Source of the DNA: Deltaproteobacteria bacterium
Lineage (GTDB): Bacteria; Desulfobacterota; Dissulfuribacteria; Dissulfuribacterales; QOAL01
DNA length: 64,000 nt
Direction of reading: 5' to 3'
Assembly: GCA_026986785.1 (NCBI GenBank)
Contig: JALSNW010000031.1
Span: forward strand, 24,223-88,222
Position 1 is the stretch's first letter; each line of letters starts with the position of its first letter. A program made the translations under genes and the position numbers. The notes under the pieces are model-generated. The model worked only from the letters and a program-made list of their open reading frames with translations. It did not search any database and was not told the DNA's origin. Below, in pieces: positions 3,146 to 37,208 of the stretch.

Positions 3146-4000
3146 ATGATCAAGAGAATATGCCTCGTTGTCAAACATAGAGATCAGAGGCCAGCGGTAG
3201 CGGCCCGCAAGATTGAAGAGCACCTCAGGGCAAGAGGTGTAGAAGTCCATCCTGGACCAGTGGAGGAAAGGGATGAGGCCATAGTAGTCATCGGTGGGGA
3301 TGGTACGCTTCTGCATGTGGCAGGGCAGGCATTTGTTGCCGAAATCCCTGTGCTCGGCATCAATGCCGGCGGTTTGGGTTTCTTGACAGAGGTGCATCTC
3401 GATGAAATGTTGGAGGCCTTGGATGCCCTTGTGGAAGGCACTTTCACCCTGGACAGGCGTATGGTTCTGGGTGTGAAGGTCAGGGGTGTCTCCTCTCAGG
3501 TTAAAAGAGAATATCTTGCATTGAACGAGGCTGTGATTACTAAAGGCGCCCTCTCCAAGATCATCCAGATAAACTCCTGGGTAAATGATACCTTTCTTAC
3601 CGTTTATAGAGGAGACGGACTGATAATCTCCACTGCTACTGGTTCTACTGGTTACAATCTTTCCGCTGGTGGGCCGATCATGTACCCAAGTCTCGAGGCC
3701 ATAGTGTTGACCCCTATCTGCCCTTTTGCCCTGAGCTCCAGGCCCTTGATACTGCCAGGCAATTCTCTCATACGGATTCAGGTCGAGGACACAGCGGAAG
3801 AGGTGTGTCTGGATGTGGATGGTCAGTCTGGGCTTCGGTTGGAACGGGGGGATGTTATTGAAATACAGAGGATGCCAGGATATCTAAAACTTATCAAATC
3901 TCCCCACAGGGACTATTTTACTATCCTCAGGGAAAAATTGGGCTGGACAAGGGGGATGAGCTATCCAGATCAAGCGAAGTCCCTCTCTAAGGGCCCCTGA
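3146..4000 (+). CDS. nadK: NAD(+) kinase
   Basis: GGDGT, GLGFL, NE, GDGLIIST and GSTGYNLSAGGP motifs. Confidence 0.95.
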   Translation: MIKRICLVVKHRDQRPAVAARKIEEHLRARGVEVHPGPVEERDEAIVVIGGDGTLLHVAGQAFVAEIPVLGINAGGLGFLTEVHLDEMLEALDALVEGTFTLDRRMVLGVKVRGVSSQVKREYLALNEAVITKGALSKIIQINSWVNDTFLTVYRGDGLIISTATGSTGYNLSAGGPIMYPSLEAIVLTPICPFALSSRPLILPGNSLIRIQVEDTAEEVCLDVDGQSGLRLERGDVIEIQRMPGYLKLIKSPHRDYFTILREKLGWTRGMSYPDQAKSLSKGP

Positions 4001-4020
4001 CTCACCTGGAGCCAGGGGCT
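3992..4020. terminator. Hairpin between convergent genes
   Basis: GCCCCTG...CAGGGGC inverted repeat at the nadK stop. There is no clear U-tract. Confidence 0.35.
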
Positions 4021-23531: not shown

Positions 23532-26500
23532 ATGAAGGACGATAATTATATACCTGGACAAATAAAAGATCATTTTGGCCCACCCTTTGAGAGAAACCTC
23601 ATTATCACCCTGGCCATTGTCTGGTTTCTTCTGATCGCAGGCTCTTTTCTATGGCACATTAGGGATATCAAGAGGGATATTCAAAAACTGGCCGAGAGAG
23701 AGGCCATATCCAGGGTTAATAAAGATACATGTTATCGTTATTGGATTGCCCAGATGGGAGGGGTGTATGTGAAGGCCTCCGAGGCCCCACCTGATAGATT
23801 TCTCATTGCCAGAAAAGATGCAGAGCTCCTCACCACGTCCGGTGAGCGTCTTGTGCTCATAGATCCTGCATACATGACCAAAATGGCCTTTGAATTGAAC
23901 AAGGAGCTTTATGGCATAATGGGCCATATAAGCAGCCTGAGTCCCGAAAAGCCCGACTACAGGCCTGATTCATGGGAAAGGGCCGCCTTAGAGGGGTTTG
24001 AGAGGGGGCAGATGCAAAAGGTCTCTATGGTCACCATTGATGGGGAAAAATATATCAGGGCCATGAAGGCCTTGGTAATAGGCCCTACGTGTATGAAGTG
24101 CCATGAATCGCAAGGTTACCAGGTCGGGGATATAAAAGGAGGGATAAGCATCAGCCTGCCTTTTGCAAGCTATGAGTCGATCATAGAGCAACAGGTTAAG
24201 ACCTTTTCGTTTATTCATGGCCTGATCCTGATTCTTGGTCTATTGACCCTGTTTGTTGGTGCAGACATATCGAGACGCAATAAGGCAAAATGGCTCAAGG
24301 ATATCAAGAAGAGACACATCCTCATGGAGGCCCTGCCTGATCTTGTCTGTTTCAAAGACGAGGATGGCAGGTGGCTTGCTGCCAATAGGTCCATGCTCAA
24401 GCTCTTCGGACTGGAGGGGGTGGATTTCATAAAGAAGAAAGGGGCAGACTTGGCCAAATACGCACCGTTTTTCAGACAGGTGTTCCACAATTGTAATGAG
24501 ACCGACCAGATGGCTTGGCAGAGCGGAAAGGCTATTCGACAGGAGGTGACCATTCCTTTATCCAATGGACAAAGTAGGACCTTCGATATGATAAAGATGC
24601 CGGTATTTGACAAAGATGGGGAAAGGGAAGGATTGGTCGTAGTGGGAAGAGATATCACTGAAGAAAAGAAGAATCAGGAGGCCATTGAGAGGATCTCCAA
24701 GTTGAAAGATCTGGTTCTTGATCTGGCCACCGGGTTTATAAACATCCCTGAAGACAGCCTTGATGAGCATATCAATGGGACCCTTGGTATGGCAGGTTCT
24801 TTTCTGTCCATGGACAGGGCCTATCTTTTTGAATATGACCACGAGGCTCGGGTGATGAGTAACACGCACGAGTGGTGCGCCAAGGGTATAGGTCCGCATA
24901 TCAATGACCTTCAAAATATATCAATGGACGACTATCCGGACTGGATGGATACACATATGAGGGGCGAGGTCATACAGATTCCATCGGTTGATGACCTTCC
25001 AGATGGTAGGCTGAGGAAGGCATTGAAGATGCAGTCCATTAAATCGTTGATAACAGTGCCCCTGATGTATGAAGGGGTGTGTCTCGGGTTTGTAGGTTTT
25101 GATTCGGTCCGTTCCAAAACCACCTGGAGTGACGATCATGTATCCCTAATAAGGATGATATCCGAGATATATGCCAATGTATTGAAGAGGAAGGAGATGC
25201 TCAGGCTTCTCCAGGCCAGTGAAAAGAGATACAGGGACTTGGTGGAAGGTCTCCCTGTAGGCCTATATCAGAGGACCCCTGGGCCCAATGGCAAATTTAT
25301 AATGGCCAATCAAGCCCTTGCCAAGATGCTCGATTATGAAAAAAGTGAGGAACTCGTAGGTCAAGACGTGGCAAGATTCTGTTTTAATCTTCAGAATCAA
25401 CGTTGTTGTGAAAGGGAACTCAAGGAGAGTGGAGTGGTAAGGGATAGACAGGTGCAGCTCATGAGGCGAAATGGAGAGATTTTCTGGGCATCTATCTCGG
25501 CAAGGGCAATACTCGATAAACAGGGTAAAATCGTAAGTGTTGAAGGATCTGTGTTGGATATAACCGACAGAAAGAAAGGGGAGGAAGAAAAGCAGAGGCT
25601 ACAGGCACAACTTCAGCAGGCGCAAAGGATAGAGTCCATAGGGCGGTTGGCAGGTGGGATTGCCCACGATTTCAACAACATCCTCGTGCCCATATTGGGT
25701 TACAGTGAGCTACTTTTTAATATTACAGCCCCGGATGACAAGATCAGGGATTACATAGAACCGATAATTGAGGCTGGGGAAAGGGCCAGAGACATAGTAC
25801 GTCAGTTGCTCGCCTTTAGTAGGAAGCAGGTGATAGAAAAGAATCCCATAGATCTGAATGATGAAATAATAGGGTTTGAAAAGTTTCTGAGGCGCACCCT
25901 TCGGGAAGACATAGAGATCGTGTTGGAGTTGGAACCCGACATCCCTGTCATAGAGGCAGACAGTAGTCAGATAGACCAAGTGATACTCAATCTCGCAGTG
26001 AATGCTCAGGATGCCATGCCAAATGGCGGTAGGATCACTATCAAGACCGCCCTGCTGGAATTGGATGACAAGTTTCAGGCCGGGATGGAACCAATAGTAC
26101 CTGGTAGTTATGTCATGATGAGCCTTAGTGACAATGGTGAGGGCATGGATGAGCAGATCCTCAAGCAGATCTTTGAGCCTTTTTTCACCACCAAGTCCAA
26201 GGACAAAGGGACGGGTCTTGGGTTGGCCACGGTTTATGGTATAGTAAGGCAACATGGAGGACATATACGGGTATCCAGTGAAGTAGGCCTTGGTACAACC
26301 TTTGATGTATATCTTCCTGTGAGTGAGAGAAGATACTTTTCAGGCCCAGTAGTTGAGCAGTCTACTGACATCCCTGGGGGAGATGAGACTATTCTATTGA
26401 TAGAAGATGACGAAAAGGTGAGAGATTTTGTCTTCCGCATGCTCAAACAAAGTGGCTACAATGTGATACAGGCCTCTACTCCAGGAGAGGCCCTTGAAAA

Positions 26501-26738
26501 ATACAAAAATAGTTCACTTCGTATCGATCTACTCCTGACAGATGTGATAATGCCTGAGATGAACGGTAAAGAGCTCTACAGGCGCCTCAAAGAATATCTT
26601 CCTGACCTTGAAGTCCTTTACATGTCTGGCTATGCACCAGATGTGATCTCTCTTACAATGGACAGGAATTTTATATCCAAGCCATTTTCTATAAGGCAGT
26701 TGGCCAAAGCTGTAAGGAGGGTCTTGGACAACCATTAG
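23532..26738 (+). CDS. Membrane hybrid histidine kinase with periplasmic heme-c (DUF3365-like) sensor, PAS-GAF-PAS, HisKA-HATPase and REC
   Basis: Two TM helices flank CMKCH. It also has AHDFNN, NAQDAM, FTTK, GTGLGL and receiver TDVIMP. Confidence 0.92.
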
Positions 26739-27075: not shown

Positions 27076-29661
27076 ATGCAATACGACAAATTTACCATGA
27101 AATCTCAGGAGGCCCTACAGGAGGCCCAAAGACTGGCCCAGAGCCAGAATCATCAACAGATAGAGGTGGAACACCTTCTGAAGGTCCTTCTTGCCCAGGA
27201 AGACGGTATAGTGCCAGCCGTCTTGAAAAAAATGGGGGTTCCAGTAAAGGCCATCGAAGCCGAGATGGAAGAGGCCCTCAAAGGCCTGCCTCAGGTGACT
27301 GGTGCAGGTGGACAGATCTATCTGTCTCCCAGTCTCAATGAGGTCCTCCAAAGGGCCTTTACAGTGGCATCTGACATGAAAGACGAGTACGTGAGCCAAG
27401 AACATCTGGTCCTGGCCATGATAGAGACAGGCGGTTCAAAGGCTGCCCAGTCTCTTGCTGCCCACGGTGTTACAAAGGATGCCTTCCTGAAGGCCCTCGT
27501 GACTATCAGGGGGACTGAACGTATTACAGACCAAAACCCTGAGGAAAAATATCAGGCCCTTGAAAAATATGCTCGGGATCTTACTGACTTGGCACGCTCT
27601 GGAAAGCTGGACCCCGTGATCGGAAGGGATGAAGAGATCAGGCGTGTAATGCAGGTCCTTTCCCGACGCACCAAGAACAACCCGGTCCTTATCGGCGAAC
27701 CTGGCGTTGGAAAGACTGCCATAGTGGAGGGCCTTGCCCAGAGGATAGTGGCAGGCGACGTCCCTGAGACCCTCAAGAACAGACGTATAGCAGCCCTCGA
27801 CATGGGTGCCTTGATAGCAGGTGCCAAGTACAGAGGTGAGTTCGAGGAAAGACTCAAGGCGGTCTTGAAAGAGGTTGCAGAAAAGCAGGGCGAGGTCATC
27901 CTCTTTATAGATGAGATCCATACCCTGGTAGGGGCAGGGGCTAGTGAGGGGGCTATGGATGCCTCCAACATGCTGAAACCTGCCCTGGCAAGAGGGGAGC
28001 TCCACTGTATAGGGGCTACCACCATCGATGAGTACAGGAAATATATAGAAAAGGATGCAGCCCTGGAGAGACGTTTTCAACCAGTACTCGTGGAAGAGCC
28101 ATCTGTTGAGGATACCATAGCAATTCTCAGGGGCCTCAAGGAAAAATATGAAGTCCATCATGGCGTGAGGATCAAGGATTCTGCCCTTGTAGCTGCTGCC
28201 ACGCTATCCCATCGCTATATCACGGATCGCTTCTTACCTGACAAGGCCATTGATCTCATAGACGAAGCTGCGGCAAAACTCAGGATAGAGATCGATTCCC
28301 TCCCCACTGAGATCGATGAGATAGAACGAAAGATCATGCAGCTCGAGATAGAAAGAGAGGCCTTGAAGAAGGAAAGCGATCCTGCATCCCAGGAGAGGCT
28401 TTCCAAGATAGAGGAGGAGCTTGCAAATCTGCGCGAGGAAAGTGATGCCCTCAAGGCCCGCTGGAAAGAGGAAAAGGGCATGATACAGCGCATCAGGGAT
28501 ATAAAAGAGCAAATAGATAAGCTCAAGGTAGAGGCAGAGCAGAAACAACGCCTGGGAGATCTGAACAAGGTTGCCGAGATCCTCTACGGCGAGATTCCTA
28601 AGCTGGAAAAGGAGCTCGAGGAAGAACAGAAGAGACTGGATGAATTCCAGAAAAACGGCAAGAGTATGTTAAAAGAAGAGGTAGACGCAGAGGACATTGC
28701 GGCAATCATCTCCAAGTGGACGGGAATCCCTGTGAGCAAGCTCATGCAGGGGGAAAAGGAAAAGCTCATTCACTTGGAAGAAGAGCTCGGCAAGCGCGTG
28801 ATTGGTCAGGAAAACGCTATCATCGCCGTGTCCAATGCCGTTCGAAGGGCGAGGGCAGGGCTACAGGCACCAAATAGACCAATCGGCTCTTTCATCTTTC
28901 TCGGACCGACTGGTGTTGGAAAGACCGAGCTTGCCAAGGCCTTGGCAGAATTTCTCTTCGATACAGAACAGGCCATGATCCGCATAGACATGAGCGAGTT
29001 CATGGAGAAACATGCAGTAGCAAGGCTCATCGGGGCACCTCCAGGATATGTGGGCTATGAGGAAGGTGGCTACCTCACTGAGGCAGTGAGGAGAAAGCCC
29101 TATTCCGTGGTCCTCTTCGACGAGATAGAAAAGGCCCATCCAGACGTATTCAATATCTTGCTCCAGATCCTGGATGATGGTCGCTTGACGGATGGAAAGG
29201 GAAGGACGGTAGATTTCAGGAATACCATCATCATCATGACGTCAAACGTGGGCAGTTCCCTCATACAGGAAGCCACAGATCAGGAAGAGATGGAGCGCAG
29301 GGTGATGGATAGCCTTAGGGCAAGCTTCAAACCCGAGTTCCTCAACAGGGTTGATGATATTATCATATTCCACTCCCTGGCCAAGGAACAGCTTACCAAG
29401 ATAGTGGACATCCAGATTGGCTATCTGGCCCAGAGGCTAAAGGAAAACCACTTCGAGCTCGAGGTAACCCAAAAGGCCAAAGAATGGCTGGCCGATGTGG
29501 GATATGATCCAAATTATGGGGCAAGGCCGCTCAAAAGGGCAATACAGCGCTATGTGGAAGACCCGCTTGCGCTCCAGATACTTGAAGGTGTCTTCAAAGA
29601 GGGAGACAAGATAATAGTCGATCTCGATGAAAACAATCATATAGTCTTCCACAAGGGTTGA
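27076..29661 (+). CDS. clpB: ATP-dependent chaperone ClpB
   Basis: Two AAA modules (GEPGVGKT; GPTGVGKT), a long coiled-coil M domain, and GAPPGYVG. Confidence 0.98.
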
Positions 29662-29686: not shown

Positions 29687-29727
29687 CAAGGCAGGTTGTA
29701 GACGCCTACAACCTGCCTTGTTTTTTT
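29687..29727 (+). terminator. Rho-independent terminator of clpB
   Basis: Perfect 15-bp stem CAAGGCAGGTTGTAG-acgc-CTACAACCTGCCTTG followed by T7. Confidence 0.92.
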
Positions 29728-29935: not shown

Positions 29936-30064
29936 AAGTGCTATATTTGATCTCTTCCGTTATAGTACAATCCATGATAGCCTCATTCAGATTGTATCAA
30001 ATCACTTTGCTCTGTGGTCAGAAGAACAACGAAACGTAGGCTTGCCGTATGGACAAAGATGCAT

Positions 30065-31069
30065 ATGATAAGAAACCAAATGATAAAAAGGATCCCCCTT
30101 GATCGTATCATGGCCCAGGGCTCCAGATATGCACTATCCAGAAGGTTTGAGCCTTTTGTAGAGCAGGTCTCAAGCGGTCTTGCCTTGAACCTGGATCAAG
30201 CGGGCTTGCTAATGCCGGTCTTGGCAAAGCTTCCACCAAACAACAGCCAACACCTACATTTGATCGATGGCTTCAAACGGTACCAATGGGCCTGTCGAAA
30301 AGGACTTTCAGGCATAGATGTCAAGATCCTGGCCCAGGACTTTCCTGATCTCAAGATAGCTACCTATCTTGCCCATGAGCATGCAGGAATAATTTCTTCT
30401 ACCATTGCCGCAAAGGCGTTGTTTATCACCTTCTGCTCTGGCCTTGGCCTGGAGAACGAGGACTTGATCGAGATCATCCTTCCTGCCATAGGGCTTCCTG
30501 CTCAAAGATCACTCCTTGACAAATATCGACGTATTGGGGCACTTCCACAAGAAGTGCTCTCGTTTTGCCACGAAAAATCCCTGTCGTTCAAAAGATGTCT
30601 AAACCTGACGTATCATGATCGTAAGCTCCTGGCTTGGCTCATGGGGTACAGGAATGCTCTGCATCTTACAGCTACCATCTTTCAGGAGCTCCTCGATGCC
30701 TTCGATGAGATCATGAGGAGGAAAGAAATGTCATTTCACGATCTGAAAGACACGCAGGACATCTCAAAGATATTGAAAGATGAAGCCCTCTCAGCCAGTG
30801 AAAAAACCGCTCGCCTTCGTGGCATGCTTAGGCTTTTGAGGCAACCGACCCTGACAGCAATAAATGCAGATCTCGATAAATGGAGGTGCCAAGTGGAAGG
30901 AGGTAACCAGGTCCTATCTATTGGTTGGGACAGGAGCTTGGAGTATGAGCATGTGGAGATACGGGCCAGGATCACCGATATGGCACAACTCGAGGCAGTC
31001 ATGGAGCATCTCCAGAGCGATAGAAGTCTGAGCGCTATTAACAAGATGTTGGAGAGGTTGAAGGCATAG
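30065..31069 (+). CDS. ParB/Srx N-terminal-domain protein (not canonical ParB)
   Basis: IPLDRI...GLLMPV...LIDGFKR pattern of the ParB/sulfiredoxin fold, with a helical C-terminus. The start is uncertain (30014, 30065 or 30080). Confidence 0.7.
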   Translation: MIRNQMIKRIPLDRIMAQGSRYALSRRFEPFVEQVSSGLALNLDQAGLLMPVLAKLPPNNSQHLHLIDGFKRYQWACRKGLSGIDVKILAQDFPDLKIATYLAHEHAGIISSTIAAKALFITFCSGLGLENEDLIEIILPAIGLPAQRSLLDKYRRIGALPQEVLSFCHEKSLSFKRCLNLTYHDRKLLAWLMGYRNALHLTATIFQELLDAFDEIMRRKEMSFHDLKDTQDISKILKDEALSASEKTARLRGMLRLLRQPTLTAINADLDKWRCQVEGGNQVLSIGWDRSLEYEHVEIRARITDMAQLEAVMEHLQSDRSLSAINKMLERLKA

Positions 31070-32263
31070 ATGTCCAATGTCACCTCCATCCAGAAAACCT
31101 CCTCCATGCGCCTGACAGGCATAAGCATAGAGCCTGATCTGGGCCATGAGATCGGAATAGAGCTCCCTTTGACTGGTACAGTGGCCATAGAAAAGGCAAG
31201 CTTTCCCAAGATCAAGGACTATCGTGCAGGTAAGAGACATTTACATCTCGATATCAAACGTGGAAACCTGTTTCACCTCTGTGCCTCACTGGATCCTCGT
31301 TATATTTGCTGTAGCACCCATGTGGTCGCCCATGTCAGTAACTGCCCATTTGAATGCACTTACTGTTTCCTGCAAAACTATCTCACCGATGCCACATTGA
31401 CCCTTGTGGCCGATACGGATGCCATTCTCAAAGAGGTACGCCAGATGATCCGGCAACAGCCCTGGCGTACTTTCAGGGTGGGCACCTGGGAGTTGGGTGA
31501 CAGTCTGGGCAATGAATTCATTTGCATGAGCGCAAAAAGACTTGTGGAAGGCTTCTCAGCCCTGGGCAATGCAGTGCTGAAGCTTCGTACAAAGGGGGCC
31601 CTTGTCGAGCCCCTTCTCCATGCCGATCACAAGGGGAGAACTGTCATATCATGGACTGTAAATCCACCTCAGGTGGTTGCCATGGAGGAGATAGGCACAG
31701 CCAGTATTGAAAAACGGATAACGGCCATGGCCAAGGCAGCGGATGCAGGTTATATGATAGGTCTCCATTTTGATCCCATGCTGCTTTTTGATGGTTGGAA
31801 GAATGCCTACAAGGATCTTGTCCAGGAGATCTTTTCTCGTATCAGAACATCACAGGTCTGTTGGATCTCCCTGGGATCACTGCGGTTTAATCCAGAGATG
31901 AAAAAAAAGATCGAATTGAATTATCCCCGCTCCAGGATTACTGCCCAAGAAATGGTGTTGGGAGATGACAATAAATTTCGCTATGTAAGACATGTGCGTG
32001 TCGGGATGTATCGCCACTTACTAAGGTGCCTCAAAGACGTAGGTGCGGATAGGTGTCTCATCTATCTTTGTATGGAGCGAATAAATGTATGGCGTTCCCT
32101 GTTCAAAAGGCCTCCCGAGACCATAGGAGAACTCGATTTCATGTTTGCAAGGAGCCTGAGCGAACGATTCCCCAGCCTTGGCCTGCCAGAACCTGAGCTG
32201 GATCTCTACCTAAAGGCGGCAGACAGTATCTATAAACCCGGATTATGCACTTCAAGGGCCTAA
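31070..32263 (+). CDS. Spore photoproduct lyase-like radical SAM protein
   Basis: NCPFECTYCFLQ (CxxxCxxC), ELGDSL, LRTK, HFDP, ISLGSLRF and KFRY motifs of the SPL-like family. Confidence 0.85.
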   Translation: MSNVTSIQKTSSMRLTGISIEPDLGHEIGIELPLTGTVAIEKASFPKIKDYRAGKRHLHLDIKRGNLFHLCASLDPRYICCSTHVVAHVSNCPFECTYCFLQNYLTDATLTLVADTDAILKEVRQMIRQQPWRTFRVGTWELGDSLGNEFICMSAKRLVEGFSALGNAVLKLRTKGALVEPLLHADHKGRTVISWTVNPPQVVAMEEIGTASIEKRITAMAKAADAGYMIGLHFDPMLLFDGWKNAYKDLVQEIFSRIRTSQVCWISLGSLRFNPEMKKKIELNYPRSRITAQEMVLGDDNKFRYVRHVRVGMYRHLLRCLKDVGADRCLIYLCMERINVWRSLFKRPPETIGELDFMFARSLSERFPSLGLPEPELDLYLKAADSIYKPGLCTSRA

Positions 32264-32444: not shown

Positions 32445-33413
32445 ATGGCCCCGAGAATGCCCAAGCAGAGCCAGGAACCTTTAAAACAGCAGCCAGGAAT
32501 ACCCCTTCCTATTGATCCAGAAGGTGTGTTGTTCCCTAATCTCTGGATTGGTACTTGGAGTATGGGGGGGGAAGGTTTTGGCCCTCATGATTTGGGACTC
32601 TCTTTAAGGACCTTGGAGACGGCCTATGAACAAGGGGTCAGGCACTTTGATACTGCTGGCTTCTATGCCCAAGGTCGTTCTGAAGTACTCCTGGCAAAGG
32701 CTTTCGGCAGAGTGCGTCCCAAGGTTTTCATCTCCACGAAGGGGGGGCTTGAAAGGGTGGGGCGCAAGGTCTGGCATGATGCCAGGCCTGAGGCCTTGAG
32801 ACAGGCCCTCTTTCAAAGCCTCGATCGTCTCAAAACAGACTACGTCGATCTTTTTCAGCTACATTGGCCCGATCCAGAGACCCCCCTTGATGAATCCATC
32901 TCGGCCCTCAAGGCCTTGAAGCAGGAAGGACTCATCCGCTATTGGGGGGTTGGAAATCTTTCTGCCCACGAGGTGTTGGGATATATAGGGCCAGGTGAGA
33001 TGGCCCCTCATCAGGTCCATTTCAACCCAATTTACAGGTCTTCGTTCCAGGTCTTACAGGCAGGCAGGAGGGATTTCAGGTGCCTCAATTGTATAGTATC
33101 TCCCCTTGAGCAAGGTCTTCTTGCCTCTGGCATCTATCTGAGCAAAGAACTTGGGAAAAAAGACATAAGGCGGAGAAATCCCTGTTTCCATGACAAGGGA
33201 ATAAGAAAATGGCTTGAGGGGCTGTTTCACAGATGTAGCCTGAGGGGACTCAGCCCGGTAACTGTGGTCTTGTCGTGGATCTTGAGTCATAAAGAGGTGG
33301 ACGTAGTTATCCCTGGCCCAAGGAAGCCGGATCAGTTGGATGAGATCACGAGTTGTTTTGGCAGGTCCTATGACTCTGTCGAGCTGTCAGACCTATTTCA
33401 TGACAATGGATGA
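32445..33413 (+). CDS. Aldo/keto reductase
   Basis: GTW, FDTAGFY, STK, DYVDLFQLHWP and IPG motifs. The catalytic D/Y/K/H tetrad is present. Confidence 0.92.
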   Translation: MAPRMPKQSQEPLKQQPGIPLPIDPEGVLFPNLWIGTWSMGGEGFGPHDLGLSLRTLETAYEQGVRHFDTAGFYAQGRSEVLLAKAFGRVRPKVFISTKGGLERVGRKVWHDARPEALRQALFQSLDRLKTDYVDLFQLHWPDPETPLDESISALKALKQEGLIRYWGVGNLSAHEVLGYIGPGEMAPHQVHFNPIYRSSFQVLQAGRRDFRCLNCIVSPLEQGLLASGIYLSKELGKKDIRRRNPCFHDKGIRKWLEGLFHRCSLRGLSPVTVVLSWILSHKEVDVVIPGPRKPDQLDEITSCFGRSYDSVELSDLFHDNG

Positions 33414-33467: not shown

Positions 33468-35165
33468 ATGGAAGAAGCATCCATAAGGACCAGGAGTCTG
33501 ATACTTGTATCTCCTCCCTTCATGAGGCCATTGTCTCCCCCTTTGGGGCCAGCATCCCTAAAGGCCTTTTTACACCAGGAGTTACCCATGGCAGAGGTGA
33601 AATGCATAGATCTAAATCTGGAGTATTTTTATTTGGCTCTTCAGTGGTTGGAAAGTGGTATGATAAAATTGCGCCTTTATGACTGGGATGACAAAAAGAC
33701 CGCCATAATGGTGAAAAAGGCCTTTGAATTCCTCCGCACTACTGCTCCAAGGCCTGAAAACATAGATGGATACCACAGGCAGGCCACGGTCTTTCTCAGT
33801 TTTGAGAATATCTTCAATGCATTTATATCAGAGATGGCCATTCGTTTTATCGTTGGTGCCCCAGTGCCAGCCAGTATATCTTCCTTTCTCCACAGGCTTT
33901 GTTCGACTGTCTTGGAGTCTGCTGCAGATGTGGTAGGCATCTCTGTCATGTTCGATATACAGATGCCCTTGGCCCTCCTCATGGCAAAAAAGGTAAAGGA
34001 TTCCACTGGTGCCTGGGTGATTCTCGGTGGGGCGAAATTTGGTGTTGAGCCAAGCTACCACAGGCTCTTAAGCGAGCCGGTGACCAAGAAGGTGCGGGGC
34101 ATAGAGTATAGATGCCAGCCTGCTGATTTCATAGATGGCATCATCTCGGGAGAGGGCGAGGTGGCCATCTTGCATATCTTGAGGTCCAAGAATCGATTCC
34201 AGATGGAACAGGCCCCAAATCTCAGCTTCAACAACGGCGAGCGAATAGTTCACAACAAACCTGCTGTGATAGACGACCTGGACAGGCTGCCATGTCCAGA
34301 TTTTTCCGATTTCAGTCTACAAAGATATCTTTGTCCAGAAGAGATCTTACCCCTGCTCACTGCTCGGGGTTGCCCTTGGGGAAGATGTGCATTTTGTACG
34401 CATCATCGTTCATACAAGAGGTACAGACAGCGCTCCATCCCCAATGTTGTAAGGGATTTCAAGTACCTAAGGGAGCGCTATGGTGTAAGGATATTTAATA
34501 TCTATGACGAGATGATCCCGCCGGGACGGTTCAGGGCACTTGCGAAGGAATTGATAAAAGGGGATCTTGATATCTGTTATTCGGCCTATGGAAAGCCAGT
34601 CAGGGGCTTCACCGACTCGACCTTGGGGCTTATTCGTAAATCTGGCTGTGGGTTGATTCTTTGGGGTCTGGAATCTGCCAGTCAGTCCGTTCTGGATCTC
34701 ATGAACAAGGGTACGAAGATATCCGAGGTGGAAAGGGTATTGAAGAGTTCGGCAAAACAGGGCATAAAAAATCTCGTTTTCGTCATGTTTGGTTTCCCAG
34801 GCGAGAGTGAAGCAGAATTCATGGAGACCATAAATTTCTTGGAAAAGAATAGGCCTGCCATCCATGCACTGTCAAAGGGGCTTTTTAGGCTCACCGAAGG
34901 CTGTCGTGTCCATAATGATCCAGAGGCGTTTGGGATCACAGATATAGAGGAATTAAAGGTCCAGCCCTTCAAGGCCAAGCATTTGATCTTCAATACATCT
35001 ACCCCCTTGGACCCTGCCAAGGCAGAAGGGCTTTTCAGGGCCAATCTCAGACGGATCGAGGCTATTGGCATTACATCGCGCTTTGGCACATATCGAGAGC
35101 ACCTTTTGATTTACGCCTGCCAAGAGGATAGATCCTCGTCCTTTGAGATAAAGGGACATGGATGA
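33468..35165 (+). CDS. Cobalamin-binding-domain radical SAM protein
   Basis: N-terminal PPLG..L, VGIS...ILGG and GEGE (B12-binding-like domain), followed by RGCPWGRCAFC and GLESAS..VL..MNKG. Confidence 0.88.
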   Translation: MEEASIRTRSLILVSPPFMRPLSPPLGPASLKAFLHQELPMAEVKCIDLNLEYFYLALQWLESGMIKLRLYDWDDKKTAIMVKKAFEFLRTTAPRPENIDGYHRQATVFLSFENIFNAFISEMAIRFIVGAPVPASISSFLHRLCSTVLESAADVVGISVMFDIQMPLALLMAKKVKDSTGAWVILGGAKFGVEPSYHRLLSEPVTKKVRGIEYRCQPADFIDGIISGEGEVAILHILRSKNRFQMEQAPNLSFNNGERIVHNKPAVIDDLDRLPCPDFSDFSLQRYLCPEEILPLLTARGCPWGRCAFCTHHRSYKRYRQRSIPNVVRDFKYLRERYGVRIFNIYDEMIPPGRFRALAKELIKGDLDICYSAYGKPVRGFTDSTLGLIRKSGCGLILWGLESASQSVLDLMNKGTKISEVERVLKSSAKQGIKNLVFVMFGFPGESEAEFMETINFLEKNRPAIHALSKGLFRLTEGCRVHNDPEAFGITDIEELKVQPFKAKHLIFNTSTPLDPAKAEGLFRANLRRIEAIGITSRFGTYREHLLIYACQEDRSSSFEIKGHG

Positions 35166-35464: not shown

Positions 35465-37057
35465 TTAGAGTCTGAAACCTGTTATCTCATCTTTTAGGTC
35501 CTTGGCAAGCTTTTTCAATTGTACTGCAGAGTGTTCTACCCTTTCGGCACTCTCTGCTGTCTTGTTGCCAGCCTCTACCAGGTTGTTACTCATCTCTTTC
35601 AACTCTCCCACTTCGCGGCTTGTATCCTGGAGACTGCTGCTGATCTCAGAGGTTGTGGCTGTTTGTTCCTCCACTGCTGCAGCCACGCTGTCTGAAAAAT
35701 CTGCCACCTTCTGGATGGTCTCAACGATCTTTTCCACCGCGTCGTTTGCCTCGTCTGCACCGTTTTGGATGTTTCGAACGATCTCATCTATCTCATTTAC
35801 AGAGTCAGAGGTCTGCTTGGCCAGTTCCTTTACCTCGTTTGCAACTACTGCAAAGCCCTTGCCTGCCTCGCCTGCCCTTGCCGCCTCTATTGTGGCATTC
35901 AAGGCGAGCAGATTGGTCTGCTCTGCAATCGAGCCTATGAGGTTGCTTACATCCCCGATCTTCGAAGAGGCATCAAGCAGGCGCTTTAGCACCAGGCTGG
36001 CCCTCTGTGCCTCATTACTGGCCTCTTGGGCAGAATACTTGGTATCGTTGGTGTGCTGGCTTATCTCGCCCACGGCGCCACTTAGCTCTTCCATGGCAGA
36101 GGCCACGTTTTCCACGTTTACCGATACATCCTTGGTATAGTCGTTCATGGTCCTGGCATGGGTATCCGTCTGGGAGGCGGCAGAAGCGAGTTCTTCAGAC
36201 TGGATGGTGAGCCTTTCGGATTCCTTGGCCAGGCCATGGCCTGCCTCCTGTATGCCAGAGATAAGCTTTCTAAGGGAGGTGACCATTATCTTCACTGCGC
36301 CATAGATCCCTTTGCCCCCCTCATGTCCCTTTAGTTTTATTGAGAAGTCACCTTCTGAAATTTTTTTCGCAATATCAGCTAAATATGTAGGCTCTGCACC
36401 AAGTGAATCCATGAGGCCCTTGGTGATGACAAGGGTCACTGCGATACCGATCAAGATACCGGCAAGCAGCATGCCCATGAGAAAGATCCTGGCCTGTTTT
36501 TCTGCATTGGCCATCTCCACAGTACTTTTGCCAATCTCTTTCTGTATGCTCTGGATCACTCTGTTTATGAGCCCTCTGTTTTTGTCTCCAATGGCGTCGA
36601 GCTCGTCATCTATTTTGGCAAAGAAGGATCCATCATCCCGTCTTTCCTTGACTGCTGGTATTAATTGTTTCTCTATCAGGGAAAGGGCGGCTTGGAGGTT
36701 GGAAAGGACCTGGTCCAGGCTGCGCTTTTCAAAGGCCGTCTCTCCTATGGTCAATATCTCCTGCCTATTGGCTGATATCCATGATTTTATTTCCTGGTCC
36801 TTTTTTTCATATTCAGGCAAGATATCAGGGTTATCCTTGTCAATGATGATATCCATCCCGTTGAGGGTGATCATGGCGCTGTAATAGTCCAGGTTTTTTA
36901 TGTCAAGCATCTGTTTGTATCGTTTCTGTACTTCGTCGTCACCATTTTTCAGGAGGTTCACCTGGTAAATGGCTATGAGTGAGGCAATGAGGAAGGTAGC
37001 AATGAGCATTCCAAAGCCCAGGGCGATCTTTGTACGAATAGATAGATTTTTAACCAT
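35465..37057 (-). CDS. Methyl-accepting chemotaxis protein
   Basis: Two TM helices, a HAMP-like region, and [30 protein letters not shown]. Confidence 0.96.
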
Positions 37058-37113
37058 CAGTTTTCTTCTCCAGTATCTTTTTGGGTAGAGGAGGTCTTTC
37101 ATCCTCAGTAAGG

Positions 37114-37141
37114 GTATCGGTTTTTGTTGGAAGAAACATGA
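37114..37141 (-). promoter_or_regulatory. Possible sigma28 promoter of the MCP gene
   Basis: Minus strand TCAT-N16-ACCGATAC, a degenerate match. Confidence 0.3.
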
Positions 37142-37208
37142 GGGTAGATGGCCCTTGTGCAAACGGTGGCTTTGGGCCTTTTGTCTTGTGATGAAAATTC
37201 GAGCCTGT

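What the first reader, a model, noticed from the sequence alone, without database searches (positions are those of the whole stretch)
30065..32263. ParB/Srx-fold protein coupled to a spore-photoproduct-lyase-like radical SAM enzyme: candidate undescribed DNA-repair or modification module
Seen: the two genes abut (TAG-ATG, no gap). The first has a ParB/Srx N-domain in which the canonical GxRR arginine patch reads DGFKR, no obvious ParB HTH, and no parA partner. The second has SPL-family motifs. Known: true SPL repairs a thymine dimer formed in spores, and ParB/Srx domains bind CTP or ATP and act as DNA sliding clamps or kinases. Inference: the host is probably a non-sporulating anaerobe, so the substrate is likely not spore photoproduct. 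The ParB-like protein could be an NTP-dependent loader or scanner, or could supply a phosphorylated substrate to the radical SAM enzyme. This is my best candidate for a novel system in the window.
Basis: partly seen in the sequence, partly recalled or inferred. Interest (0 to 1): 0.8.

Follow-up and report, generated by a model that had tools for sequence, protein, structure and literature searches.

The report
ParB-like adaptor with SPL-like enzyme
A divergent ParB-type protein and a relative of the spore DNA-repair enzyme SPL form a dedicated, probably physically bound pair that travels with a particular sugar transferase in many non-sporulating bacteria, and what the pair acts on is still unknown.

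Summary
Two genes abut (TAG then ATG). The first is a ParB-family protein by family profile and by fold, though not by Pfam on its own sequence. The second is a full-length structural relative of spore photoproduct lyase (SPL). The pair is conserved: 68 of 80 related loci have the partner directly upstream. In 201 genomes of the phylum, enzyme and partner co-occur in 112, occur alone in 3 each, and are missing together in 83. A specific GT2 glycosyltransferase shows nearly the same profile (106 with the enzyme, 4 alone). A complex model passes (ipSAE 0.76, best control 0.00). It docks the partner's family-specific C-terminal domain on the enzyme's beta-hairpin region.

It is not an SP lyase. 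Cys140 is Glu, Tyr98 is Phe, the SP base-binding residues are lost, and the genome has no SASP. ParB's CTPase boxes are degenerate, so an NTP-driven clamp is unlikely.

The window's variant adds an MTA/SAH-nucleosidase-like domain fused to the GT2 (encoded on another contig here) and an aldo-keto reductase.

My best reading (about 0.4) is an adaptor-bound radical SAM enzyme in a glycosylating nucleic-acid modification pathway. I found no description in the papers searched.

The parts
29687..29720 (+). Terminator-like hairpin after clpB. It marks the upstream boundary of the unit.
   Evidence: 15-pair stem, 8 GC pairs, T-rich tail. clpB is ORF 27076..29661.
30065..31069 (+). ParB-like adaptor gene (334 aa from ATG 30065). 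Alternative starts are ATG 30059 and GTG 30014.
   Evidence: Family profile against ParB/Spo0J/Noc chains at E 1e-17. 74 of 95 members hit Pfam ParB_N. AF2 pLDDT 95.8. Foldseek best matches are ParB, KorB and Noc. The near-identical database protein P0001 is 336 aa, which fits the start at 30059.
30065..30649 (+). ParB N-domain plus HTH-like middle domain (residues 1-195). It contains the degenerate Box II DGFKR at residues 68-72.
   Evidence: alignments (profile 3-207 against Spo0J 4-197). G69 invariant, R72 at least 90% conserved, and no conservation at the Box I and Box III columns.
30650..31066 (+). Family-specific C-terminal domain (residues 196-334) with conserved P261, W288, D289, L292 and E293. 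It is the predicted docking surface for the radical SAM enzyme.
   Evidence: conservation. (interface residues 214-221, 259-266, 291-295, 333-334). (this domain found in 115 of 201 genomes). (partners of 168-175 aa that consist of this domain only).
31070..32263 (+). SPL-like radical SAM enzyme gene (397 aa).
   Evidence: PF20903 107.5 bits; TIGR04070 116.7 bits against cut-off 400. (AF2 pLDDT 84.9). (Foldseek to G. thermodenitrificans SPL: E about 1e-17 to 2e-18, TM 0.63-0.74, about 350 columns; the next-best fold, PFL-AE, is at 3.5e-4).
31343..31366 (+). Radical SAM cluster motif C92-x3-C96-x2-C99 within NCPFECTYCF. F100 stands where SPL has Tyr98.
   Evidence: invariant columns. (alignment to SPL chains). 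(4k9r is titled the Y98F mutant).
31940..32005 (+). Beta-hairpin region (residues 291-312; invariant T291, E294, G298, D300, K302, R304, Y305, R310). It is the predicted contact with the ParB-like C-domain. Its topological place matches SPL's DNA-flipping hairpin.
   Evidence: strands 295-297 and 303-305 between helices 275-284 and 307-323... PMC3467042 passages on the hairpin between beta5 and alpha6. Residue-by-residue equivalence to SPL Arg304/Tyr305 was not shown.
32445..33413 (+). Aldo-keto reductase, an accessory gene of this variant of the system.
   Evidence: PF00248, E 3.6e-51. A homolog lies downstream of the enzyme in 33 of 80 loci across several phyla. In the phylum survey only the own genome has a strong ortholog (7.6e-134; the other 7 matches are 3e-68 or weaker).

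Best explanation
The two genes encode an obligate adaptor-enzyme complex that belongs to a larger conserved pathway.

Proposed mechanism:
- The ParB-like protein docks through its family-specific C-terminal domain onto the beta-hairpin and C-terminal region of the SPL-like radical SAM enzyme (predicted).
- Its N-terminal ParB-plus-HTH module is a degenerate, probably non-hydrolysing ParB. It brings the enzyme to a phosphate-bearing polymer, most likely DNA (inferred).
- The enzyme cleaves SAM and abstracts a hydrogen atom from a substrate that is not spore photoproduct. My best guess is a pyrimidine base, since SPL chemistry runs through the thymine C5-methyl/C6 radical (inferred).
- The obligately co-occurring GT2 glycosyltransferase then adds a sugar to the product (inferred from co-occurrence only).
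- SPL's Cys140-Tyr98 relay for regenerating SAM is missing, so SAM is probably consumed stoichiometrically (inferred).
- In the window's variant, an MTA/SAH-nucleosidase-like domain fused to the GT2, plus an aldo-keto reductase, would dispose of 5'-deoxyadenosine or process an adenosylated intermediate (inferred).

Shown here: homologies and folds, gene linkage, genome-wide co-occurrence, loss of SP-specific residues, and a complex model that passes its controls.
Not shown: the substrate, DNA binding, any chemistry, and the GT2's role.
For: 1. Linkage. A partner homolog lies directly upstream on the same strand in 68 of 80 loci retrieved with the enzyme profile. In 43 of those 68 the distance from the partner's stop to the enzyme's first possible start codon is -60 to +5 nt.
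2. Co-occurrence in 201 genomes of the phylum. The enzyme is in 115, the partner C-domain in 115, both in 112, either alone in 3 each, neither in 83. Two of the three 'enzyme only' genomes do have an adjacent partner when scored with the full-length HMM. Co-occurrence holds where the genes are unlinked, for example G030, G069, G112, G126 and G176.
3. GT2. A strong GT2 ortholog is in 110 genomes: 106 with the enzyme and 4 without. It lies directly upstream of the partner in 42 of 80 loci spanning at least six phyla.
4. Complex model. ipSAE was 0.76, 0.75 and 0.77, with best control 0.00. The mark was reached by 58 of 80 solved complexes and 2 of 110 mismatched pairs. The runs share at least 98% of contacts and partner pLDDT is at least 84. 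I used my own alignments, so those counts hold only roughly. The interface uses the most conserved residues of both proteins.
5. Reduced partners. In one family of genomes the partner is only the C-domain (open frames of 175-184 aa; called ORFs of 168 and 175 aa in L094 and L095). This fits that domain being the enzyme-binding part.
6. Homology. For both proteins the nearest characterised relatives act on DNA. SAM-binding residues of SPL are kept (K174 to K175, D143 to D144, S195 to T196, R273 to R272).
7. Precedent. Phage thymine dioxygenases need a cognate ParB-like activator and sit with glycosyltransferases (PMC13229309, passages read).
8. Nucleosidase-like domain. The profile matches solved MTA/SAH nucleosidases at E 3e-12 to 1e-9, and VDME and ITD line up with VEME and ISD.
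9. Rearrangement. In the own genome the GT2 fusion sits on contig C41 between the same neighbours (MarC-like, DUF-type membrane protein) that flank the whole operon in relatives. The ParB-enzyme-AKR block therefore moved as a unit.
Against: - No DNA binding, substrate or product was tested, and none can be with these tools.
- The GT2 resembles polysaccharide and teichuronic-type transferases (TuaG 4e-32, chondroitin synthase 3e-34). It gives no direct sign of acting on nucleic acid.
- ParB Box I, Box III and the catalytic Glu are not conserved. In five genomes of one family the whole ParB-plus-HTH module is missing, so DNA targeting by it cannot be essential everywhere.
- Seven of 80 loci with at least 4.9 kb of upstream sequence have the enzyme without an adjacent partner. 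I did not check whether those genomes encode the partner elsewhere.
- SPL's base-binding Arg193 and Glu268 are not kept (Ser194; a two-residue deletion), so a pyrimidine substrate is a guess.
- Family charge is unremarkable: median pI 7.8 for the enzyme and 6.7 for the partner.
- No close member lies on the phage or plasmid records searched, unlike most known DNA-hypermodification systems.
- The predicted docking site covers the hairpin that in SPL is proposed to enter DNA. The partner might therefore replace DNA contact rather than assist it.
- Kin are not independent, so the co-occurrence table overstates statistical weight.
Confidence: 0.4

Rival explanations
1. Nucleotide-sugar or small-molecule tailoring pathway with no DNA involved. 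The ParB/Srx-like module keeps a base-and-phosphate pocket and presents a (cytidine) nucleotide-linked substrate to the radical SAM enzyme. The aldo-keto reductase reduces the resulting keto or aldehyde intermediate, and the GT2 transfers or decorates the product. A sub-variant is radical adenosylation followed by adenine removal and reduction, as in the MqnE/MqnB and HpnH/HpnG logic (recalled, not from a call).
For: - The enzyme set GT2, MTA/SAH-nucleosidase-like domain, aldo-keto reductase and radical SAM is typical of metabolite or glycan pathways.
- The equivalents of M. xanthus ParB S68, G73 (cytosine binding) and R95 (phosphate) are the conserved residues of the N-domain, while the hydrolysis residues are lost (roles from PMC13229309).
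- Distribution is chromosomal and consistent within taxonomic families, with no close member on the phage or plasmid records searched.
- The GT2's nearest named families make polysaccharides.
- ParB/Srx-fold small-molecule kinases (SerK, SbnI) appear among the weaker matches.
Against: - The partner's best matches by far are DNA-binding ParB/Noc/Spo0J, including the HTH region (1e-17), against SbnI at 3e-5 and SerK at 0.02.
- The enzyme's only characterised close relative acts on DNA, and the whole SPL architecture including the hairpin is kept.
- The nucleosidase domain and the reductase are absent from most carriers in the phylum, so they are not core chemistry.
- In the window protein itself the S68-equivalent is Asn42.
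Confidence: 0.28
2. Direct-reversal DNA repair of a lesion other than spore photoproduct (for example another methylene-bridged or saturated pyrimidine adduct formed without UV). The ParB-like protein acts as the damage-search or loading factor.
For: - SPL-like fold over about 350 columns.
- SAM-binding residues are kept, as is the phosphate-binding Arg273 equivalent.
- An invariant Cys71 stands at the position of SPL Ser76. That is where clostridial SPLs carry their H-donor cysteine, and where the S76C change sits in the C140A/S76C double mutant that was solved.
- SprT-like and PIN-PhoH genes lie nearby in Nitrospirota loci.
Against: - A repair enzyme has no obvious need for an obligately co-occurring glycosyltransferase (106 of 115 carriers).
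- Tyr98 is Phe or Ile and Cys140 is Glu throughout.
- The neighbourhoods examined hold no SOS or other repair genes beyond a lineage-specific synteny.
- Many carriers come from dark, anoxic habitats by their record titles.
Confidence: 0.15
3. A genuine spore photoproduct lyase (SplB orthologue) that happens to sit beside an unrelated ParB-like regulator.
For: The Pfam SPL match is above cut-off. The public sources name several relatives 'spore photoproduct lyase'.
Against: - TIGR04070 scores 116.7 bits against a cut-off of 400.
- Cys140 is Glu, Tyr98 is Phe, Arg193 is Ser, and Glu268 is deleted.
- The own genome (99.2% complete) has no SASP and no Spo0A above cut-off.
- The partner co-occurs genome-wide and is predicted to bind the enzyme.
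Confidence: 0.03
4. The ParB-like protein is only a transcriptional regulator of the operon (as DndB or KorB are), or is itself the protein substrate of the radical SAM enzyme.
For: HTH-like domain. ParB-family repressors exist: KorB is among the fold matches, and DndB is described as a repressor in bioRxiv 10.1101/2025.10.10.680097 (passage seen). Predicted direct contact is also what an enzyme-substrate pair would show.
Against: - Co-occurrence persists when the genes are unlinked, so one operator cannot cover both.
- Partners that consist of the C-domain only lack the HTH.
- The predicted interface does not include the enzyme's cluster loop (92-99) or the GTWELGDS strand. It uses conserved surface residues typical of a stable complex.
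Confidence: 0.07

Closest known systems
Spore photoproduct lyase SplB (G. thermodenitrificans structures 4FHC-4FHG, 4K9R, 4RH0; TIGR04070; Pfam PF20903)
   Same: - Same overall fold across about 350 aligned columns (TM 0.63-0.74).
- CX3CX2C cluster motif.
- Kept SAM-binding residues: K174, D143, S195 (as Thr) and R273 equivalents.
- A beta-hairpin at the same place in the topology.
- A Cys at the position used as H-donor by clostridial SPLs (S76 equivalent is C71).
   Different: - 21-23% identity, far below the equivalog cut-off.
- Cys140 is an invariant Glu and Tyr98 is Phe.
- The SP base-binding residues Arg193 and Glu268 are lost.
- Three further invariant cysteines (C80, C81, C334) are absent from the SPL sequence in the aligned part.
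- It has an obligate ParB-like partner and a co-occurring GT2.
- The hosts do not sporulate.
Chromosomal ParB/Spo0J/Noc CTPase clamps (6SDK, 1VZ0, 7BNK, 7NFU, 6T1F)
   Same: N-terminal ParB/Srx domain plus HTH-like domain, at profile E 1e-17 to 2e-13 and Foldseek probability 1.00. The equivalents of MxParB S68, G73 and R95 are conserved.
   Different: - Box II reads DGFxR, and Box I and Box III are not conserved.
- There is no adjacent parA. The genome has its own canonical parAB elsewhere.
- ParB's C-terminal dimerisation domain is replaced by a family-specific domain that is predicted to bind the radical SAM enzyme.
ParB-dependent phage thymine dioxygenases (5mYOX/ParB pairs; PNAS 2026, PMC13229309, abstract and passages read)
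   Same: A ParB-like protein encoded beside a nucleobase-directed enzyme and needed as its cognate activator. Glycosyltransferases occur in the wider family's neighbourhoods. NTP-site mutations did not abolish the ParB's function there, which parallels the degenerate NTP site here.
   Different: - The enzyme there is an Fe(II)/2-oxoglutarate dioxygenase, not a radical SAM enzyme.
- Those systems are phage-borne, while this one is chromosomal with no close member in the phage records searched.
- Those ParBs keep the dimerisation domain and lack the DNA-binding domain. This one is the reverse.
Radical-SAM-plus-nucleosidase pathways (MqnE/MqnB of futalosine menaquinone synthesis; HpnH/HpnG/HpnI of hopanoid side chains) - recalled from memory, not from a call
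   Same: The gene set combines a radical SAM enzyme, a PNP_UDP/MTAN-type nucleosidase, a GT2 and a candidate sugar-aldehyde reductase.
   Different: The radical SAM enzyme here belongs to the SPL clade, not the MqnE or HpnH families. The nucleosidase domain and reductase are missing from most carriers. Those pathways have no ParB-like partner.

Membership tests
Spore photoproduct lyase (SplB) | Radical SAM CX3CX2C motif and SPL-type fold | tested here: met
   C92/C96/C99 are invariant. PF20903 scores 107.5 bits against cut-off 27. Foldseek to 4FHC and related entries gives E about 1e-17 to 2e-18 and TM 0.63-0.74.
Spore photoproduct lyase (SplB) | Score above the curated equivalog cut-off (TIGR04070) | tested here: not met
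   116.7 bits against a cut-off of 400. TIGR03886 scores 65.8 against 437.55.
Spore photoproduct lyase (SplB) | H-atom donor cysteine (Cys140 in G. thermodenitrificans, or the clostridial alternative at Ser76) | tested here: inconclusive
   Cys140 aligns to an invariant or near-invariant Glu141. The Ser76 position aligns to invariant Cys71 (roles from PMC3467042). Cys71 could equally be a ligand of a four-Cys metal site together with C80, C81 and C334.
Spore photoproduct lyase (SplB) | [quoted passage not shown] | tested here: not met
   Aligned to invariant Phe100. It is Ile in the more distant family members.
Spore photoproduct lyase (SplB) | SP base-binding residues Arg193, Glu268 and Tyr339 | tested here: not met
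   Arg193 aligns to Ser194. Glu268 falls in a two-residue stretch that the family lacks (roles). Tyr339 could not be aligned.
Spore photoproduct lyase (SplB) | Host makes spores with alpha/beta-type SASP, the condition under which SP forms | tested here: not met
   PF00269 gives 0 matches in the 99.2%-complete genome, while the control rings in B. subtilis. Spo0A matches are all below cut-off.
Spore photoproduct lyase (SplB) | Repairs 5-thyminyl-5,6-dihydrothymine in DNA | not testable with these tools
   Needs anaerobic reconstitution with an SP substrate.
ParB (chromosome-partition CTPase clamp) | ParB/Srx N-terminal domain followed by an HTH DNA-binding domain | tested here: met
   Met at family-profile and fold level only. 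The window protein alone hits no Pfam ParB model. Four of 95 members hit HTH_ParB.
ParB (chromosome-partition CTPase clamp) | CTP-binding and hydrolysis boxes (Box I QxR, Box II GERRxR, Box III ENxxR) | tested here: not met
   Only G69 and R72 of Box II, plus the S68 and G73 equivalents, are conserved. The E93 equivalent is Phe. The Box I and Box III columns are unconserved (residue roles).
ParB (chromosome-partition CTPase clamp) | parA partner in the same operon | tested here: not met
   The upstream gene is clpB. The canonical parA-parB pair is on contig C25. No parS search was done.
ParB (chromosome-partition CTPase clamp) | C-terminal dimerisation domain | tested here: not met
   PDB profile matches stop at about profile position 207. 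Residues 196-334 form a family-specific domain that matched no ParB chain, and the complex model places it on the enzyme.
ParB-activated nucleobase-modifying systems (5mYOX/ParB type) | Cognate ParB-like protein encoded beside, and required by, a DNA base-modifying enzyme | tested here: inconclusive
   Adjacency, co-occurrence and predicted binding are met. Requirement and DNA-base chemistry are untested. The enzyme class differs (radical SAM, not Fe/2OG).
Radical adenosylation pathways (MqnE/MqnB, HpnH/HpnG type) | Radical SAM enzyme with a dedicated PNP_UDP-type nucleosidase that removes adenine from the adduct | tested here: inconclusive
   An MTAN-like domain with the VDME and ITD motifs is fused to the GT2 in this variant. 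Most carriers' GT2 lacks it: matches start near profile position 215. The own genome has three other PNP_UDP genes.

The most novel reading that the evidence does not exclude
An oxygen-independent route to a glycosylated DNA base in bacterial chromosomes, a radical-SAM counterpart of the thymine-hydroxylase-plus-glucosyltransferase logic of base J and of phage thymine hypermodification.

- The ParB-like adaptor would place the SPL-like enzyme on DNA.
- The enzyme would generate the thymine (or other pyrimidine) C5-methyl radical that SPL normally quenches.
- The four extra conserved cysteines (C71, C80, C81, C334) would hold an auxiliary cluster that oxidises the radical so that water or a sugar can add.
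- The co-occurring GT2 would complete a glycosylated base.

Because more than half of the sampled genomes of this phylum carry the genes, this would mean a widespread chromosomal DNA hypermodification that has so far been overlooked.
Probability: 0.15. Interest if true: 0.92.

Novelty: new variant of a known kind. Interest (0 to 1): 0.72.

Why it matters
SPL is so far the only characterised enzyme of its radical SAM clade, and it is known only as a spore-specific DNA repair enzyme. Here a sister family sits in 115 of 201 sampled genomes of one phylum, and in Nitrospirota, Bdellovibrionota, Gammaproteobacteria, Margulisiibacteriota, marine Actinomycetota and others by record title. It is tied to a dedicated ParB-derived adaptor and a dedicated glycosyltransferase.

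If the substrate is DNA, this would be a chromosomal, housekeeping-type base modification made by radical chemistry. It would also be a second, independent case of a ParB fold recruited as activator of a base-modifying enzyme. If the substrate is a nucleotide-sugar, it would show the ParB/CTP-binding fold reused as a substrate carrier.

Either way the system is sharply defined: three genes, a predicted interface and a list of diagnostic residues. It occurs in genomes assembled to a single contig, so cultured carriers probably exist and it is directly testable.

Tried and rejected
1. **Single-sequence domain scans of protein 1.** They gave nothing, and the word-indexed homolog search found only the protein's own cluster. 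The exhaustive HMMER scan was needed (608 relatives at E of at most 0.001).
2. **Fused forms.** A search for proteins of 696-2000 aa found none. This is weak evidence, and a GT2-enzyme fusion of about 650 aa would fall outside that range. An apparent 636-aa ParB-enzyme fusion in L118 is an artefact of a masked stretch read as X. Long 'open frames' in high-GC genomes are overlapping separate genes.
3. **Aligning the enzyme's C-terminal 127 residues to SPL by sequence.** This failed, so I could not show that R304/Y305 here equal SPL's Arg304/Tyr305.
4. **Aldo-keto reductase as a core component.** Rejected: only the own genome has a strong ortholog among the 201 genomes.
5. **Downstream B12-binding radical SAM gene as part of the system.** Rejected: it is shared only with the syntenic close relative L001.
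6. **Mobile-element or defence context.** No close family member was found in the phage or plasmid collections.
7. **Charge and pI as a hint for DNA binding.** Uninformative.
8. **Literature.**
   - 'spore photoproduct lyase' + ParB + 'radical SAM': 0 papers.
   - 'SPL family radical SAM' and similar phrases: 4 papers, none on this pair. PMC3765255 discusses other SplB-like enzymes linked to ImuB-C and DUF4130.
   - The ParB-CTPase-fold survey (bioRxiv 10.1101/2025.10.10.680097) has no occurrence of 'radical', 'photoproduct' or 'lyase' in its main text.
   - Supplements of all papers were closed, so a listing of this family in a supplementary table cannot be excluded.

Full report
**What is in the window**

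Two plus-strand ORFs fill the reported interval. The first has possible starts at 30014 (GTG), 30059 and 30065 (ATG) and ends at 31069. The second runs from 31070 to 32263. The stop TAG (31067-31069) is followed at once by ATG.

Upstream lies clpB (27076-29661), closed by a strong terminator-like hairpin at 29687-29720. Downstream come an aldo-keto reductase (32445-33413) and a B12-binding radical SAM gene (33468-35165).

**The enzyme**

Protein 2 (397 aa) matches Pfam SPL at 107.5 bits (cut-off 27). It reaches only 116.7 bits against the 400-bit cut-off of the SplB equivalog TIGR04070. Its relatives are numerous and well conserved: 631 proteins at E of at most 0.001 in the indexed search, and 45-70% identity to the window protein across 33 relatives from diverse phyla. 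An AF2 model (pLDDT 84.9) has the G. thermodenitrificans SPL structures as its only strong Foldseek matches (E 2e-18 to 7e-17, TM 0.63-0.74, about 350 columns). The next-best fold is PFL-activating enzyme at 3.5e-4.

I compared the HMM alignment to SPL chains with the residue roles given in the structure paper (PMC3467042, passages read).

| SPL residue (role) | Equivalent in the window enzyme |
|---|---|
| Lys174 (SAM binding) | K175, kept |
| Asp143 (SAM binding) | D144, kept |
| Ser195 (SAM binding) | T196, conservative change |
| Arg273 (SAM binding, intra-lesion phosphate) | R272, kept |
| Cys140 (H-atom donor) | Glu141, at least 90% conserved |
| Tyr98 | Phe100, invariant |
| Arg193 (binds SP base) | Ser194 |
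| Glu268 (binds SP base) | lies in a two-residue stretch the family lacks |
| Ser76 (H-donor Cys in clostridial SPLs; S76C is one of the two changes in the 4RH0 double mutant C140A/S76C) | Cys71, invariant |

Three more cysteines are invariant (C80, C81, C334). Together with C71 they could form a second metal site, but I could not check the geometry.

A predicted beta-hairpin (strands 295-297 and 303-305) lies between helices 275-284 and 307-323. That is the topological place of SPL's DNA-flipping hairpin. Sequence alignment of this region to SPL failed.

The genome is 99.2% complete. It has no SASP gene and no Spo0A above cut-off. This is therefore an SPL-like enzyme with a different substrate.

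**The partner**

Protein 1 alone matches no ParB model, and the indexed search found only its own cluster. The exhaustive scan found 608 relatives at E of at most 0.001, almost all about 320 aa long.

- A profile of 95 of them hits solved Spo0J, ParB and Noc chains at E 1e-17 to 2e-13. The alignments run through the HTH region.
- 74 of 95 members hit Pfam ParB_N and 4 hit HTH_ParB.
- The AF2 model is confident (pLDDT 95.8), and its Foldseek matches are ParB, KorB, Noc, then sulfiredoxin and serine kinase.
- DGFKR aligns with GERR, with G69 invariant and R72 at least 90% conserved.

I used the residue roles listed for M. xanthus ParB in PMC13229309. The equivalents of S68, G73 (cytosine contacts) and R95 (phosphate) are conserved in the family. 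The window protein itself has Asn at the S68 position. Q52, R54, E93 (Phe here) and N127 are not conserved. Nucleotide binding is therefore possible, but hydrolysis and clamp cycling are unlikely.

Residues 196-334 form a family-specific domain with conserved P261, W288, D289, L292 and E293. The genome has a canonical parA-parB pair elsewhere, with intact boxes.

**Is the pair conserved?**

*Related loci.* A profile scan of one-genome-per-species contigs gave 265 confirmed relatives of the enzyme, and the best 80 loci were kept.

- In 68 of 80 loci a partner homolog lies directly upstream on the same strand.
- In 43 of those 68, the distance from the partner's stop to the enzyme's first possible start is -60 to +5 nt.
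- Of the 12 loci without a partner, four have fewer than 650 nt of upstream sequence and one has 1.2 kb holding an unrelated ORF.
- The other seven have at least 4.9 kb of upstream sequence and no adjacent partner. I did not search those genomes further.
- Across 63 loci the partner is 28.6% identical to the window's (median) and the enzyme 50.3%. The two identities are correlated (r = 0.86). Relatedness alone would also produce such a correlation.

*Phylum survey.* I searched 201 genomes drawn evenly from the window's phylum.

| Feature | Genomes of 201 |
|---|---|
| Enzyme (E of at most 1e-40) | 115 |
| Partner C-domain (E of at most 1e-4) | 115 |
| Both | 112 |
| Enzyme only | 3 |
| Partner only | 3 |
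| Neither | 83 |

Two of the three 'enzyme only' genomes do have an adjacent partner when scored with the full-length model. The third showed none within 3.5 kb.

I then fetched 20 regions, chosen by me for long contigs and a spread of scores, including one paralog. Eleven had the partner adjacent. For seven of the other nine, the genome-wide search found the partner elsewhere in the genome. Five genomes of one family have a partner in an open frame of only 175-184 aa. In the two I fetched, the called ORFs are 168 and 175 aa and match only the C-terminal part of the family. All six genomes of the window's own order lack all three genes, so this lineage probably acquired the system.

**The wider system**

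Clustering the neighbours in the 80 loci shows two recurrent genes. A protein of about 500 aa lies directly upstream of the partner in 42 loci, and an aldo-keto reductase lies downstream of the enzyme in 33. Both recur across Desulfobacterota, Nitrospirota, Gammaproteobacteria, Bdellovibrionota, Binatota, Margulisiibacteriota, Nitrospinota and marine Actinomycetota (record titles).

The 500-aa protein is a GT2 glycosyltransferase (PF00535, E 1e-32) with an N-terminal PNP_UDP domain.

- Its profile matches solved MTA/SAH nucleosidases at E 3e-12 to 1e-9 over most of that domain.
- VDME and ITD line up with the nucleosidase's VEME and ISD. The catalytic roles of those motifs are recalled, not taken from a call.
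- E20, D157-M158-E159 and D182 are invariant in 23 sequences.

The window lacks this gene, but the own genome has a full-length ortholog on contig C41 (E 7.5e-117). There it lies between a MarC-like gene and a membrane-protein gene. The same two gene families flank the whole operon in relatives such as L004 and L006. So the ParB-enzyme-reductase block has moved away as a unit.

In the phylum survey a strong GT2 ortholog occurs in 110 genomes, 106 of them with the enzyme. I set aside six weaker GT2 matches (best E 8e-46 to 2e-51), all in genomes without the enzyme. Most of these GT2s are about 290 aa and match only profile positions from about 215 onward, so they lack the nucleosidase domain. 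The reductase ortholog is strong only in the own genome.

The core is therefore GT2 + partner + enzyme. The nucleosidase domain and the reductase define the window's variant. The own genome has three other PNP_UDP genes, so the fused domain is an addition, not the cell's only nucleosidase.

**Do the two proteins bind?**

A complex model with both family alignments scored ipSAE 0.76, 0.75 and 0.77, against a best control of 0.00. In the tool's calibration the mark was reached by 58 of 80 solved complexes and 2 of 110 mismatched pairs. The runs share at least 98% of contacts and partner pLDDT is at least 84. My own alignments were used, so those counts hold only roughly. I know of no solved complex of this kind.

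The interface joins enzyme residues 282-312 and 337-343 (the hairpin region with its invariant residues) to partner residues 183, 214-221, 259-266, 291-295 and 333-334. These are the conserved positions of the C-domain. This fits the existence of C-domain-only partners. It supports binding but does not show it.

**Interpretation**

*Shown:*
- An obligate-looking three-gene association.
- A ParB-derived partner whose NTPase boxes are degenerate.
- An SPL-fold enzyme that keeps SAM binding but has lost the SP-specific residues and the Cys140-Tyr98 relay.
- A predicted complex through the partner's C-domain.

*Inferred:*
- The pathway modifies rather than repairs, because a glycosyltransferase co-occurs in 106 of 115 carriers.
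- The substrate bears phosphates and is probably nucleic acid. Both proteins' nearest characterised relatives act on DNA, and the Arg273 equivalent is kept.
- There is a published precedent of a ParB-like activator for phage thymine dioxygenases that sit with glycosyltransferases (PMC13229309).
- SAM is probably consumed. That would explain a dedicated 5'-deoxyadenosine nucleosidase domain and a reductase in one variant.

*Against the DNA reading:*
- The GT2 looks like polysaccharide enzymes.
- The ParB module is dispensable in one family of genomes.
- The docking site covers the hairpin that SPL is thought to push into DNA.
- Nothing close is found on the phage or plasmid records searched.

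A nucleotide-sugar or small-molecule pathway, with the ParB/Srx pocket holding a nucleotide-linked substrate, explains the accessory enzymes equally well. I rate it only a little lower.

**Prior knowledge**

I found no paper describing the pair.
- 0 papers held SPL + ParB + radical SAM.
- 4 papers held phrases such as 'SplB-like', and none concerned this pair.
- The ParB-CTPase-fold survey does not mention radical SAM or lyase in its main text.

Eight earlier AI notes of this scan, from other genomes, describe the same module and reach similar conclusions. They are leads, not independent evidence. One of them says the GT2 in its genome is a recent insertion that close relatives lack. My phylum-wide co-occurrence argues that a GT2 of this family is part of the system in general, without contradicting that particular genome.

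**Verdict**

It is a new variant built from known kinds of parts. Its function is unknown but sharply testable.

Noticed in passing
window 33468-35165 (+): A B12-binding radical SAM protein of 565 aa. Its best NCBIfam match is RiPP-maturation C-methyltransferase TIGR03975, at 142.9 bits against a cut-off of 281.85. It follows the reductase directly. It is shared only with the syntenic close relative L001, so it is not part of the conserved system. No precursor peptide was looked for.
   Followed up: partly
own genome G000:C41:4218-5687 (locus L081 1483-3036): The MTAN-like-GT2 fusion gene of the system lies on a different contig, between a MarC-like gene and a membrane-protein gene. These are the neighbours that flank the complete operon in relatives (L004, L006). 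The ParB-enzyme-reductase block has therefore been transposed to the clpB locus in this lineage and in L001.
   Followed up: partly
L094 6004-6510 (-) and L095 5983-6510 (-); also G039, G077, G111, G144, G175: In one family of genomes the partner is a protein of 168-184 aa (called ORFs of 168 and 175 aa; open frames of 175-184 aa) that corresponds only to the C-terminal domain of the ParB-like protein. The ParB N-domain and HTH are missing, and the gene upstream is a HAD-type phosphatase.
   Followed up: partly
L103, L104 (G045, G083) and G117, G150, G181: A divergent subgroup (enzyme E about 1e-57) has the gene order reversed in L103 and L104 (enzyme first, then partner). These genomes have no strong GT2 ortholog. 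They account for five of the nine 'enzyme and partner without GT2' genomes.
   Followed up: no
L039, L041, L042, L047, L062, L065-L067 and other Nitrospirota loci, downstream of the enzyme: There is a recurrent set on the opposite or same strand: a small Cys-rich zinc-finger-like protein, an SprT-like metalloprotease (PF10263, E 6.5e-8) and a PIN-PhoH ATPase. The SprT-like gene occurs in 17 of 80 loci. This may be lineage synteny or a link to nucleic-acid processing.
   Followed up: no
L106 4647-5837 (+) (G001:C68); second matches in G084, G182, G183: A paralogous, more distant SPL-like radical SAM gene (E 1e-43 to 1e-49 against the family profile). In L106 it sits without a ParB-like partner next to large ATPase-like and putative DNA-binding genes, possibly in a mobile or defence context.
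   Followed up: no
L118 (G070:C64) 2109-4019 (+): An apparent 636-aa ParB-enzyme fusion is produced by an operator-masked stretch that reads as a run of X. It is not evidence for a fusion.
   Followed up: yes
window 23532-26738 (+) and 35465-37162 (-): The unit is flanked at a distance by a large PAS/GAF hybrid histidine kinase and a methyl-accepting chemotaxis protein. Both are also present in the syntenic relative L001. No link to the system was seen.
   Followed up: no
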